Shown here: positions 7,085-11,022 of the stretch, piece by piece
Position numbering within the stretch: position 1 is the first letter of the stretch
How the letters are laid out: each line of letters opens with the position of its first letter
Program-made: the position numbers and the translations under genes
The notes under the pieces: model-generated
What the model saw: the letters and a program-made list of their open reading frames with translations, nothing else
Told to the model about the DNA's origin: nothing
Database searches by the model: none
Assembly (NCBI GenBank): GCA_022072055.1
Contig: JAJVIK010000007.1
Location: 513,442-577,441, forward strand
Direction: 5' to 3'
DNA from: a bacterium
Lineage (GTDB): Bacteria > Hinthialibacterota > Hinthialibacteria > OLB16
DNA length: 64,000 bases

Positions 7085-8500
7085 CTAGGCCGCGGCGTGG
7101 TGGGCGAGCTTCTCGGCCTTCTCCCTGACCATCTCGATGTTCCCCACCATGTAAAAGGCCTGCTCGGGTAGGTCATCGAGCGCCCCGGAGAGAATCTCCT
7201 TGAAGCCCTTCACGGTCTCCTCGCGGGGGACATACTGGCCCGGAATGCCGGTGAACTGCTCCGCGACAAAGAACGGCTGCGAGAGGAAGCGCTGAATCTT
7301 CCGCGCGCGGGAGACAATCAGCTTGTCCTCGTCGGAAAGCTCATCCATGCCGAGGATCGCGATGATGTCCTGGAGGTCCTTGTAGGTCTGGAGAACCTTC
7401 TGGGTCTGACGAGCCACCTCATAGTGCTCCTGCCCCAGAACCTCGGCCTTGAGAATACGGGAGGTGGAATCGAGCGGGTCGACCGCCGGGTAGATTCCAA
7501 GCTCGGCGATCTGACGGGAGAGCACGGTAGTGGCGTCCAAGTGCGCAAAGGCGGTCGCAGGCGCCGGGTCGGTGAGATCGTCCGCGGGAACATAGATGGC
7601 CTGCACCGAGGTCACCGAGCCTTTCTTGGTGGAGGTGATTCGCTCCTGCAACCCAGCCATCTCGGTGGAGAGGTTGGGCTGATAGCCCACCGCGGAGGGC
7701 ATGCGGCCGAGCAACGCGGAAACCTCCGAACCGGCCTGGGTGAAGCGGAAGATGTTGTCGATGAAGAGGAGCACATCCTGCCCCTCGGCATCCCGGAAAT
7801 ACTCCGCCATGGTGAGGGCGGTAAGCCCGACTCGCAACCGCGCCCCGGGCGGCTCGTTCATCTGGCCATAGACCAGGGCGGTCTTGTTGATAACCCCCGA
7901 CTCCTGCATTTCCAGCCACAGGTCGTTGCCCTCGCGGGTGCGCTCGCCCACCCCGGCGAACACCGAGGTTCCGCCATGCTCCTGGGCGATGTTGCGGATG
8001 AGCTCCATGATGAGCACGGTCTTGCCCACCCCCGCGCCGCCGAACAGTCCGACCTTGCCGCCCTTGGCATAGGGGCATAGCAGGTCCACGACCTTGAGTC
8101 CGGTTTCGAGCATCTCGGTGGTGGTGCTCTGGTCCACGAATTTCGGGGGGGCCTTGTGTATCGGCGAGGTTTCCTTGGTCTTCGGGGCTGGATGCTTGTC
8201 CACCGGCTCGCCGAGGACATTGAAGATTCGCCCAAGGGTCTCCGAACCCACCGGCACCGAAATCGGCGCGCCGGTGTCCTCGGCATCCTGACCGCGCATG
8301 ATTCCGTCGCTGCTGGACATCGCCACCGCGCGCACAATGTTGTTGCCGAGGTGCTGGGCGACCTCGACCACGACATCCCGTTCCATCACTTCGCCCGTCT
8401 TGGGGATCACCAGGGCGTTATAGATATCCGGAAGGTTGCCCGCCTCAAATTCGACATCCACCACGGGACCGATGACCTGCTTGACTTTACCCGTCGACAT
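7085..8500 (-). CDS. atpD: F1 ATP synthase beta subunit
   Basis: Walker A GGAGVGKT and DELSDED motif; start [12 protein letters not shown] at 8500 preceded by GGAGAGAGG RBS; upstream extension in the ORF track rejected. Confidence 0.95.
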
Positions 8501-8573
8501 GCCTCTCTCCTTCATATCGTGGCGCGGACCGATTGCCCGCGCGCGGGGGCGAGACCCCCATGCTCCATTGCGG

Positions 8574-10124
8574 TCAGCGGGCCGCGCCCACCGCCGCTTG
8601 AGATTCCTTGAAATTCGCGACCGCCTTGCGCATCCGCGCGCGCAGGTCGTCCGATAGCTCCTTTTTGGCCGCGACCTCGCGCAGGATCTCCTGCTCGGAA
8701 ACCCGCATGTGCTCCAGCAGGCCATCGCTCATGGCAACCACCTCCGAGGCGGGCACATCATCCCAGAAACCTTCGGTGGCGGCGAAGATCTGGGTGATCT
8801 GCTCCTCCACCGGAAGCGGGACATATTGGCCCTGCTTGAGCACCTCGACCAAACGCTCGCCGCGACGAAGCTGCTTCTGAGTGGCGGCGTCCAGGTCCGA
8901 ACCGAACTTGGCGAAGGCGGCGAGCTCTCGATACTGAGCGAGCTCCAGGCGCAACCGCCCGGCCACCTGCTTCATCGCCTTGATCTGCGCGTTGCCGCCC
9001 ACGCGCGAAACCGAGATGCCCACGTTGATCGCGGGGCGCACGCCCGAATAGAACAGATCGGTCTCCAGAAAGATCTGACCATCGGTGATCGAGATCACGT
9101 TGGTGGGAATGTAAGCCGAAACATCGCCCGCTTGGGTTTCGATGATCGGCAGCGCGGTGAGCGAGCCGCCGCCGAGCTCGCCGGAGAGCTTCGAGGCGCG
9201 CTCCAACAGGCGGCTGTGGAGATAGAAGACATCTCCGGGATACGCCTCGCGCCCCGGCGGACGGCGCAGGAGCAGCGAGAGCTGCCGATAAGCCACGGCC
9301 TGTTTGGAAAGGTCATCGTAAATGCACAGCACATGCTTGCCGTTGAACATGAAGTGTTCGCCCATCGCGCACCCGGCGTAGGGCGCGATGAACTGGAGCG
9401 GGGCCGGCTCCGAGGCCGGGGCGCTGACCACGATGGTGTAGCTCATGGCCCCGTGATCCTCCAGCGCCTTGACCACCTGGGCGATGCTGGACTCCTTCTG
9501 CCCGATGGCCACATAGATGCAATACACCGGCGAATCGGTCTGGTGGGTGGTTTTCTGGTTGATGATCGTGTCGATGGCCACCGCCGTCTTGCCGGTTTGA
9601 CGGTCGCCGATGATGAGCTCGCGCTGGCCGCGCCCGATGGGGGTCATCGAGTCAATCGCCTTCAGCCCGGTCTGGAGCGGCTCCTTGACCGGCTGGCGGT
9701 CCACGATGCCCTTGGCCACCATCTCAATCTTGCGGTAAGCGGTGGGTTTGGGATTGATCGGCCCCTTGCCATCCACCGGCTCGCCAAGCGGGTTGACCAC
9801 GCGCCCCAGCAGCCCCTCGCCGCAAGGCACCTGGACCACCTGACCGGTGCAGCGCACGCTTTCCCCCTCGCGGATGCCTCGGTCGGTTCCGAGAAGCACC
9901 ACGCCGACATTGTCTTCCTCGAGGTTGAGGACCATGCCTCTCACACCGCCGGTGAACTCGACCAGCTCCCCGGCCATGGCCTTGTCGAGGCCGTAGACGC
10001 GCGCGATGCCGTCGCCGACCTCGACGACCGTCCCGATTTCCTCGGTCTGGGTCCGGGTCTCGAAACTGCGAATCCGCTGCTCGATCAACGAGCTGATCTC
10101 ATCGGGTCTGATAGCGTGGGACAT
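8574..10124 (-). CDS. atpA: F1 ATP synthase alpha subunit
   Basis: Walker A GDRQTGKT, typical alpha-subunit length (516 aa) and conserved blocks. Confidence 0.95.
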
Positions 10125-10140
10125 GATTGTGTTCGTGCTC

Positions 10141-10719
10141 CTACGAATTGGAGGTCGCGGCCAAGGCCCCGGCGGGGTCCGTCAGGGTCTCGCGCAACCG
10201 CTCCAGTTTGGTCTTGACGCTCGCGTCCAGGATGGAGTTCCCCATGCGAATCCGCACGCCCCCGATGATCGAGGGATCGAGAGTGAACTCCAGTTCGGGC
10301 TTCTTTCCGGTGATCTTGGCGACCACCTCGGCGATCTTTGCCTTGGCCGCTTCGTCCGCCGGCGCGGGCACGGTCACCTCGGCCTGAATCACTCCCGCCT
10401 CTCGTCGCCCGAGCTCATCGAAGGCCGCCACCATCTGCTCCAGGTGGGCGATGCGGCGTTTGCGGATCACCAGGCGCAGGAAGTTGTGGGTTATTTCGGA
10501 GAGGCCGAGCTTGGCGCGGAGGTCGCCGAGGAGTTCCAGACGGGTCTTGTTGTCATAGGCCGGGTCGAGCATGACCTCGCGCAGACGGCTCCCCTCGCCA
10601 AAGAGATCGAGAAAGGTGTGCAGATCGCGGGCAACCACCGGGAGTTGGTCGGTGCCGCGAACCACCCGCAGGAGCCCATCCGCGTAACGTTGCGCCAAGA
10701 CACTGGTGTAGGCCATCAA
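10141..10719 (-). CDS. atpH: F1 ATP synthase delta (OSCP) subunit
   Basis: 192-aa ORF immediately upstream of atpA with OSCP-like C-terminus ([18 protein letters not shown]). Confidence 0.8.
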
Positions 10720-10728
10720 TCTCTTCCG

Positions 10729-11022
10729 TTATTCCGAGGCGTTTTTCAAACACACGGATTCATTTTTGTATCGCAGCCCGATCAGCAGCAGGGAGAGCAG
10801 GTGTCCCGCCGCGAAGGCAACCACCGCCGAGTCCATCCGAATTCCCGGGATCAGCGCGCCCGCCGCAAGCAAGGCCCCCACGGCGAGGATTCGGATGAGC
10901 GAATCCAGGCGGAGTCTTGTGGAACCTCCCACGGTTCCGCGCTCGCGCGCTCCCAAGGCCCGCACAAGCAGGCCCGTGTGCAGGGCCGCCGCAACAAGCC
11001 CCCACAGCGCGCCCACGAGCAT
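10729..11022 (-). CDS. Small membrane protein (three hydrophobic segments; possibly AtpI/AtpZ-like)
   Basis: About 97 aa from internal Met MLVGALWG; sits where an Fo b-subunit gene would be expected but lacks the b-subunit coiled coil. Confidence 0.35.
   Translation of the reverse strand: MLVGALWGLVAAALHTGLLVRALGARERGTVGGSTRLRLDSLIRILAVGALLAAGALIPGIRMDSAVVAFAAGHLLSLLLIGLRYKNESVCLKNASE

What the first reader, a model, noticed from the sequence alone, without database searches (positions are those of the whole stretch)
7085..11022. F1 ATP synthase delta-alpha-beta genes without gamma, epsilon or Fo genes alongside
atpH, atpA and atpD are contiguous, with only 73 nt between atpA and atpD, where gamma (atpG) normally sits. 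Downstream of atpD, where epsilon is usual, is a lower-GC FN3-like orphan gene; upstream of atpH is a 97-aa membrane protein rather than the b subunit. Either the operon is split across the genome or this locus is a rearranged or second copy.
Basis: partly seen in the sequence, partly recalled or inferred. Interest (0 to 1): 0.5.

Follow-up and report, generated by a model that had tools for sequence, protein, structure and literature searches.

The report
Split ATP synthase operon: atpI-delta-alpha-beta
This is a normal-looking ATP synthase head (delta, alpha, beta plus a small AtpI-like membrane protein) whose gamma, epsilon and membrane-sector genes lie somewhere else, and the same unusual gene order is shared by every relative of this uncultured lineage, so it is a lineage habit and not a defect of this genome.

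Summary
On the minus strand lie a 97-aa membrane protein (10729-11022), atpH/delta (10141-10716), atpA/alpha (8574-10124) and atpD/beta (7085-8500), with exactly 73 nt between alpha and beta. No gamma, epsilon, a, b or c gene was found anywhere in the 64-kb window.

The arrangement is not peculiar to this genome. Eleven further distinct relatives have the same small ORF-delta-alpha-beta block, with different flanking genes. They come from NCBI MAGs named Candidatus Omnitrophica and from JGI, ENA and Logan contigs (alpha 77-89% identical, delta 43-63%). They form one clade in alpha and beta trees. Every more distant genome examined has gamma between alpha and beta, or beta at another locus.

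Alpha and beta are fully canonical: 212 of 216 and 226 of 239 near-invariant columns are kept. The small upstream ORF is a weak AtpI-family member.

Most likely this is an ordinary rotary F1Fo ATP synthase whose genes are split, with gamma, epsilon and Fo encoded elsewhere. That last point is inferred, because I could not reach the rest of any lineage genome. The gene order itself seems uncatalogued; published surveys report alpha-beta adjacency only for the divergent Tenericutes clusters. Interest is low to moderate.

The parts
11157..11184 (-). Sigma-70-like promoter candidate (TTGACA-16 nt-CACAAT) upstream of the small ORF. It is a consensus match only.
   Evidence: It matches 10 of 12 positions and is the only such site upstream of the cluster on this strand. 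Two sites were found in the region, against 0.9 expected by chance.
10729..11022 (-). atpI-like gene: a 97-aa protein with three hydrophobic segments. NCBI calls a 101-aa version in the sister strain, starting 12 nt further upstream.
   Evidence: It lies immediately upstream of delta in every lineage locus that reaches that far and is absent from the canonical loci. Ten of 15 family members give weak PF03899 ATP-synt_I hits, best E=1.2e-5, all below the gathering score. Only 6 credible relatives were found among 1.84 billion representatives.
10141..10719 (-). atpH, the F1 delta (OSCP) subunit. The likely start is the ATG at 10716, giving 191 aa.
   Evidence: Pfam PF00213, positions 1-172 of 172, E=1.1e-39. 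It is 100% identical over 99% of the query to the 191-aa P0132, named ATP synthase F1 subunit delta [Candidatus Omnitrophica bacterium].
8574..10124 (-). atpA, the F1 alpha subunit, 516 aa, with Walker A motif GDRQTGKT.
   Evidence: Pfam hits. It is identical to P0121 (MCG3197240.1), which is on record from a 646,555-bp contig. It keeps 212 of 216 columns that are at least 90% conserved in 82 canonical alphas.
8501..8573 (-). The 73-nt alpha-beta spacer, which holds the ribosome-binding site for atpD and has no room for a gene.
   Evidence: Sequence read. The predicted fold is no better than shuffled sequence (z=-0.53). In relatives the spacer is 36-124 nt, and 231 nt in one.
7085..8500 (-). 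atpD, the F1 beta subunit, 471 aa, with Walker A motif GGAGVGKT and a DELSDED (DELSEED-type) loop.
   Evidence: Pfam hits; sequence. It keeps 226 of 239 columns that are at least 90% conserved in 47 canonical betas, with no lineage-specific indels.

Best explanation
The cluster atpI-like / atpH / atpA / atpD is one transcription unit. It encodes the stator head of a conventional rotary F1Fo ATP synthase (alpha3beta3 plus delta) and a small AtpI-type membrane protein. In this uncultured lineage, labelled Candidatus Omnitrophica/Omnitrophota at NCBI, the ancestral order I-a-c-b-delta-alpha-gamma-beta-epsilon has lost a-c-b, gamma and epsilon from this locus.

Shown here:
- the identity of the genes;
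- their tight packing;
- conservation of the arrangement across the whole clade;
- the canonical character of alpha, beta and delta.

Inferred:
- Gamma, epsilon, a, b and c are encoded at one or more other loci.
- The assembled enzyme works like any F-type ATP synthase. The proton- or sodium-driven c-ring, gamma and epsilon rotate inside alpha3beta3. Delta and b hold the head to subunit a.
For: (1) Gene identity. Pfam gives full-length OSCP, alpha and beta. Walker A motifs, the DELSEED-type loop, and the [11 protein letters not shown] and MPSAVGYQP loops can be read directly in the translations.

(2) Canonical proteins. Alpha keeps 212 of 216 and beta 226 of 239 columns that are at least 90% conserved in canonical enzymes, with no indels of note. 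Alpha is 70-72% identical to alphas of organisms with complete operons.

(3) Lineage-wide arrangement. The block small ORF-delta-alpha-beta, without gamma or epsilon, occurs in L081, L082/L094, L085, L086, L087/88, L090, L091-93, L096, L108, L115/116 and L118. The flanking genes are unrelated between them.

(4) Monophyly. These loci form one clade in neighbour-joining trees of alpha and of beta. The delta search gives 23 clusters at 226-326 bits, then a gap down to 134 bits.

(5) Outside the clade. All 80 genome loci with alpha at or below 70% identity have beta about 1 kb downstream, leaving room for gamma, or have beta at another locus. L089, at 72%, has the full operon Z-I-a-c-b-delta-alpha-gamma-beta-epsilon.

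(6) Established knowledge. Delta is present, and its only known role is to tie alpha3beta3 to the b stalk of Fo. That implies Fo exists.

(7) Precedent. Lineage-specific splitting of atp loci is well documented (PMC4154653, PMC5709465).
Against: - No gamma, epsilon, a, b or c gene of this lineage was actually seen. None occurs in the 64-kb window or in the up-to-10-kb flanks held for each relative.
- The window's own 646-kb source contig is not in the position index, so the 'elsewhere' step is inference.
- A 2026 preprint reports gamma detectable in only 30 of 176 complete Omnitrophota genomes, against alpha and beta in 125 of 176 (10.64898/2026.06.07.730766). Those genomes are mostly small host-dependent ones. 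I suspect, but did not check, that the divergent type 2/3 ATPases described in PMC10066038 account for much of that gap.
- Three separate losses from one locus (a-c-b, gamma, epsilon) is an unusual history.
Confidence: 0.8

Rival explanations
1. It is an accessory partial copy. The lineage has a complete ATP synthase operon elsewhere (F-, N- or V-type), and this delta-alpha-beta set is an extra paralogous head module.
For: It cannot be excluded without whole genomes. Duplicated atp loci such as N-ATPases are common (PMC4154653). The small ORF also gives two weak AtpR hits, AtpR being an N-ATPase subunit.
Against: - The proteins are as conserved as primary F1 subunits.
- N-ATPases lack delta, whereas delta is present and conserved here.
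- In the alpha and delta searches, all hits attributable to this lineage belonged to one type. The listings were capped at 120, so this is weak evidence.
Confidence: 0.1
2. There is no canonical rotor. The lineage lacks a recognisable gamma and epsilon, and the head works with a diverged or non-homologous central stalk, or as a non-rotary ATPase.
For: - No gamma was found in any of roughly 250 kb of lineage sequence examined.
- Gamma is reported as frequently undetectable in complete Omnitrophota genomes.
- Alpha-beta adjacency is otherwise reported only for the divergent Tenericutes type 2/3 clusters (PMC5709465).
Against: - The gamma-facing elements of alpha and beta are intact: the DELSEED loop, the VPADDLTDP catch loop and the proline-rich sleeve loops. 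No lineage-specific change sits in conserved columns.
- Delta implies a peripheral stalk and Fo.
- Type 2/3 and 'symbiotic' ATPases have highly divergent alpha, sit next to type-4a pilus genes and were not described with a delta. None of that applies here.
Confidence: 0.06
3. It is an assembly or binning artefact, or a strain-specific deletion of gamma.
For: The window appears to come from a metagenome-assembled genome: its alpha protein is on record as 'MAG: ATP synthase subunit alpha [bacterium]'.
Against: The same junctions occur in independent assemblies from NCBI, JGI, ENA and Logan, at 74-98% nucleotide identity. The spacers are short and intact, and both reading frames are intact.
Confidence: 0.01

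Closest known systems
Canonical bacterial F1Fo ATP synthase operon (atpI-B-E-F-H-A-G-D-C, as in E. coli or Bacillus; seen here in L089)
   Same: Delta, alpha and beta are orthologous and highly conserved, with alpha 70-72% and beta up to about 75% identical. They keep the same relative order and strand. An AtpI-type small membrane protein sits at the 5' end.
   Different: The genes for a, c and b (between atpI and atpH), gamma (between alpha and beta) and epsilon (after beta) are all missing from the locus.
Lineage-specific split atp loci (Alphaproteobacteria atpHAGDC + atpIBEF; Bacteroidota/Chlorobi/Cyanobacteria atpDC apart; Aquificae in four or more pieces) - PMC4154653, PMC5709465
   Same: It is the same phenomenon. 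One enzyme is encoded at several loci, in a pattern fixed within a lineage.
   Different: Published splits cut the ancestral order at junctions, so each piece is a contiguous segment of it. Here gamma has been removed from inside the alpha-gamma-beta segment, which makes alpha and beta adjacent. That pattern is not among those listed in the passages of those surveys that I read.
Mycoplasma type 2/type 3 F1-like ATPase clusters and the 'symbiotic' F-type ATPases of Omnitrophota (PMC10066038)
   Same: Alpha-like and beta-like genes are adjacent with no canonical gamma between them. They are reported in the phylum whose name NCBI gives to these MAGs.
   Different: Those alpha and beta are phylogenetically distinct from respiratory ones and lie next to type-4a pilus genes. 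Here alpha and beta are prototypical, delta is present, and no pilus cluster is adjacent.
N-ATPase operon (atpD-C-Q-R-B-E-F-A-G)
   Same: It is a rearranged F-type locus with small AtpI/AtpR-type membrane proteins. Two members of the small-ORF family give weak AtpR hits.
   Different: N-ATPases lack delta, begin with beta-epsilon and keep a, c, b and gamma in the operon. None of that applies here.

Membership tests
F-type ATP synthase, F1 alpha subunit | Three-domain architecture (N-terminal beta-barrel, nucleotide-binding domain, alpha-type C-terminal domain) with Walker A motif GDRQTGKT | tested here: met
   PF02874, PF00006 and PF00306 all score far above their cut-offs. The motif is read. 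212 of 216 conserved columns are kept.
F-type ATP synthase, F1 beta subunit | Catalytic Walker A motif GGAGVGKT, a DELSEED-type loop, and high identity to canonical betas | tested here: met
   (Pfam). ([15 protein letters not shown]). Beta is up to about 75% identical over its full length, 79% over a partial match. 226 of 239 conserved columns are kept.
F-type ATP synthase, delta/OSCP subunit | Full-length OSCP domain, encoded directly upstream of alpha | tested here: met
   PF00213 positions 1-172 of 172, E=1.1e-39. The gap to atpA is 16 nt.
Complete F1Fo ATP synthase (functional enzyme) | Genes for gamma, epsilon, a, b and c present in the same genome | not testable with these tools
   They are absent from the window and from all flanks held.
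Canonical single-locus atp operon | All eight subunit genes contiguous, with gamma between alpha and beta | tested here: not met
   The alpha-beta spacer is 73 nt. Profile HMMs found no gamma, epsilon, a, b or c in 64 kb.
AtpI (Pfam PF03899, ATP synthase I chain) | A small multi-helix membrane protein that matches the family model above its threshold and is encoded at the 5' end of an atp operon | tested here: inconclusive
   - The position is right in every relative.
- Ten of 15 family members hit PF03899, but all are weak (best E=1.2e-5), and the window's own copy does not hit.
- hhalign against AtpI from canonical loci gives E=0.008 with probability 5%.
N-ATPase | Operon order beta-epsilon-Q-R-a-c-b-alpha-gamma, with no delta | tested here: not met
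   Delta is present. Beta is last in the cluster and is not followed by epsilon.
Type 2/3 (Mycoplasma-like, 'symbiotic') F1-like ATPase | [quoted passage not shown] | tested here: not met
   Alpha is 70-72% identical to respiratory alphas. No pilus genes lie within the flanks. The family criteria are taken from PMC10066038.

The most novel reading that the evidence does not exclude
The whole clade may lack a canonical gamma and epsilon. Its otherwise orthodox alpha3beta3-delta head would then couple to a strongly diverged or non-homologous central stalk, or to the rotor of another ATPase operon. Separating the 'head' genes from all rotor and membrane genes would then reflect a real modular swap and not just gene shuffling.
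Probability: 0.06. Interest if true: 0.8.

Novelty: new variant of a known kind. Interest (0 to 1): 0.27.

Why it matters
The main use is for annotation and for metabolic reconstruction of uncultured bacteria. Module-based pipelines could score these genomes as having an incomplete F-type ATPase if they expect one operon, so gamma, epsilon and Fo should be looked for at other loci.

It also adds a split pattern that I did not find in the two published surveys of atp gene order. The locus keeps only the stator-head genes and atpI, and gamma has been excised from between alpha and beta. This is a small data point for ideas about modular evolution and assembly of ATP synthase.

It does not by itself open a new mechanistic question, unless whole genomes show that gamma is truly absent.

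Tried and rejected
Looking for the missing genes:
- I built profile HMMs for gamma, epsilon, a, b, c, AtpZ and AtpI from the fetched canonical loci. I searched all six frames of the window and of every lineage locus and found nothing for gamma, epsilon, a, b or c.
- I tried to reach the rest of the source genome. Window alpha equals P0121, which is on record from a 646,555-bp NCBI contig, but its position is not indexed. The delta look-up returned only the 9-kb sister-strain contig and short Logan contigs.
The cap then prevented a second scan.
- I did not run a protein-database search with a foreign gamma. Only the 120 best hits are listed, and they would be relatives of the query, not of this lineage.

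Literature:
- Searches for the assembly accessions found nothing.

Ideas rejected:
- A hidden gene or structured RNA in the alpha-beta spacer. It is 73 nt and folds no better than shuffled sequence.
- Gamma on the opposite strand. The long antisense ORFs there are ordinary high-GC shadow ORFs with no HMM match.
- A fusion of gamma to alpha, beta or delta. Their lengths are normal, and the only lineage-specific insertions are 2 aa inside alpha and 1 at its C-terminus.
- A functional link with the fn3-like downstream gene. It is absent from every relative except the 98.4%-identical strain.

Other negatives:
- Rfam and tRNA scans of the window found nothing.
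Full report
**What is there**

The region 7085-11022 carries four tightly packed genes on the minus strand. Pfam identifies three of them:
- 10141-10719 is a full-length OSCP/delta subunit (E=1e-39).
- 8574-10124 is an F1 alpha subunit, with beta-barrel, nucleotide-binding and alpha-type C-terminal domains.
- 7085-8500 is an F1 beta subunit.

The beta ORF formally runs up to 8725, but its real start is the ATG at 8500, which follows a GGAG ribosome-binding site. That leaves exactly 73 nt after the alpha stop codon. Upstream of delta, separated by about 10 nt, is a 97-aa ORF (10729-11022) with three hydrophobic segments. A sigma-70-like site, TTGACA-16 nt-CACAAT, lies at 11184-11157.

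Downstream of beta, after 123 nt, is a 264-aa ORF with a sub-threshold fn3 hit. Its composition is clearly foreign: GC 52% and GC3 53%, against 63-64% and 83-85% for the atp genes.

**Are other atp genes nearby?**

Pfam scans of about 50 ORFs across the 64-kb window found no other ATP synthase gene. They were searched with filters off against all six frames of the window. The best E-value was 0.85, while the delta HMM scored 1e-46.

**Is it peculiar to this genome?**

No. The alpha protein is identical to MCG3197240.1 ('bacterium'), which is on record from a 646,555-bp contig. It is 100% identical by BLASTP (as listed) to NUN96948.1 of GCA_013360775.1, named Candidatus Omnitrophica bacterium. 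That MAG's contig is 98.4% identical to the window in DNA.

Relatives were located through the protein database, the contig index and a metagenome scan. Their alpha is 77-89% identical and their delta 43-63% identical to the window's. They are L081, L082/L094, L086, L087/88, L090, L091-93, L096, L097, L108, L115/116/117 and L118. Wherever the contig reaches far enough, every one has the same block: small ORF, delta, alpha, beta. The alpha-beta spacers are 36-124 nt, or 231 nt in one case. None has gamma, epsilon or Fo genes within the flanks held, up to 10 kb on each side.

The flanking genes differ from one relative to the next. Examples are HicAB, ParE/Phd followed by rpmH-rnpA-yidC, a phosphate-binding-like protein, and hydrogenase maturation genes. 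The four-gene block therefore moves as an independent unit.

In neighbour-joining trees of alpha and of beta these loci form one clade. A profile search with delta gives 23 clusters at 226-326 bits and then drops to 134 bits.

Outside the clade the picture is conventional:
- L089 (alpha 72% identical) has AtpZ-I-a-c-b-delta-alpha-gamma-beta-epsilon.
- All 80 genome loci at or below 70% identity have beta about 1 kb after alpha, or beta at another locus as in Bacteroidota, Chlorobi and Phycisphaerae.

**Are the proteins normal?**

Yes. Alpha keeps 212 of the 216 alignment columns that are at least 90% conserved in 82 canonical alphas. Beta keeps 226 of 239. The few differences are conservative and variable within the clade, and there are no meaningful indels. 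Several landmark motifs can be read directly in the translations:
- the Walker A motifs;
- the DELSDED loop;
- the VPADDLTDP catch loop;
- the [11 protein letters not shown] and MPSAVGYQP loops.

From established structural knowledge, these last elements line the gamma shaft. Nothing suggests adaptation to a different central stalk.

**The small ORF**

It is conserved in position in all relatives and absent from the canonical loci. It is nearly restricted to this clade: only 6 credible relatives appeared among 1.84 billion representative proteins. Ten of 15 family members give weak hits to Pfam ATP-synt_I (best E=1.2e-5), and two give weak hits to AtpR. A profile-profile comparison with AtpI proteins from canonical loci aligns almost the full length, but only weakly (E=0.008, probability 5%). 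I therefore call it AtpI-like, with membership inconclusive. Its presence at the 5' end fits an origin from an ancestral atpI-a-c-b-delta-alpha-gamma-beta-epsilon operon from which a-c-b, gamma and epsilon were removed.

**Interpretation**

The best-supported reading is an ordinary rotary F1Fo ATP synthase whose genes are split. In this lineage the stator-head genes (alpha, beta, delta) and atpI form one operon. Delta's only known role is to connect alpha3beta3 to the b stalk of Fo, so Fo should exist. Alpha3beta3 cannot couple rotation without gamma. I therefore infer that gamma, epsilon, a, b and c are encoded elsewhere.

I could not show this directly:
- The contig index has no position for the window's source contig.
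- A protein search with a foreign gamma would list only that query's own relatives.

**Comparison with the literature**

Split atp loci with lineage-fixed patterns are well documented (PMC4154653; PMC5709465). Those splits cut the ancestral order at junctions. The 2017 survey of 2,248 strains singles out alpha-beta adjacency as found only in Tenericutes, which I take to be the divergent type 2/3 clusters. The delta-alpha-beta order seen here is not among the patterns in the passages I read.

Omnitrophota are known for 'symbiotic' type 2/3-like ATPases next to pilus genes (PMC10066038). A 2026 preprint finds gamma detectable in only 30 of 176 complete genomes. The present genes are not of that kind: alpha and beta are prototypical, delta is present, and no pilus genes are adjacent. 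The preprint's observation still leaves a small probability that gamma is truly unusual in this clade.

**Verdict**

The arrangement is standard for the lineage, not a defect, a rearrangement of this particular genome, or an evident second copy. It is a new split pattern of a very well known system, of low to moderate interest, unless whole genomes reveal that gamma is missing.

Noticed in passing
window 586-3852 (+): The succinate dehydrogenase/fumarate reductase flavoprotein gene (586-2502) and the iron-sulfur subunit gene (3112-3852) are separated by a 70-aa ORF (2505-2717) and a PIN-domain toxin gene (2714-3109). The gaps are only 2 nt, or the genes overlap by 4 nt. A toxin-antitoxin-like pair therefore appears to be inserted inside the sdh operon.
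   Followed up: partly
window 6167-6961 (-): The fn3-like ORF just downstream of atpD has much lower GC (52%, GC3 53%) than its neighbours. It has its own TTGACA-containing upstream region. It occurs only in the 98.4%-identical sister strain (L085) and in no other relative. It is probably a recent acquisition unrelated to the atp genes.
   Followed up: partly
window 13325-14072 (-), 47374-47889 (-), 55737-55988 (-); L081 10473-10939; L115 13756-14294: Toxin-antitoxin modules are frequent in this genome: PIN with a FitA-like RHH antitoxin, YoeB with YefM, and a MazE-like antitoxin. In two relatives a toxin-antitoxin pair (HicAB, ParE/Phd) sits directly downstream of atpD.
   Followed up: no
window 14211-25004: A rhamnose and polysaccharide utilisation cluster. 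It holds an alpha-L-rhamnosidase, a RhaT symporter, an isomerase-like gene, a GH9 glycosidase, an FG-GAP/PQQ beta-propeller protein and a ThuA-GFO/IDH/MocA fusion. This suggests a free-living glycan degrader with complex II and cytochrome c, unlike the small host-dependent Omnitrophota in the literature. The NCBI phylum label was not verified.
   Followed up: no
window 11201-13192 (-); L082 15189-16988: A TPR plus Peptidase_MA_2 protein lies just upstream of the atp cluster in the window and within 5 kb of it in one relative (L082/L094, about 64% nucleotide identity). It is not conserved in the other relatives.
   Followed up: no
window 43083-47342 (+): A 1419-aa protein with right-handed beta-helix/NosD repeats, of unknown role.
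   Followed up: no
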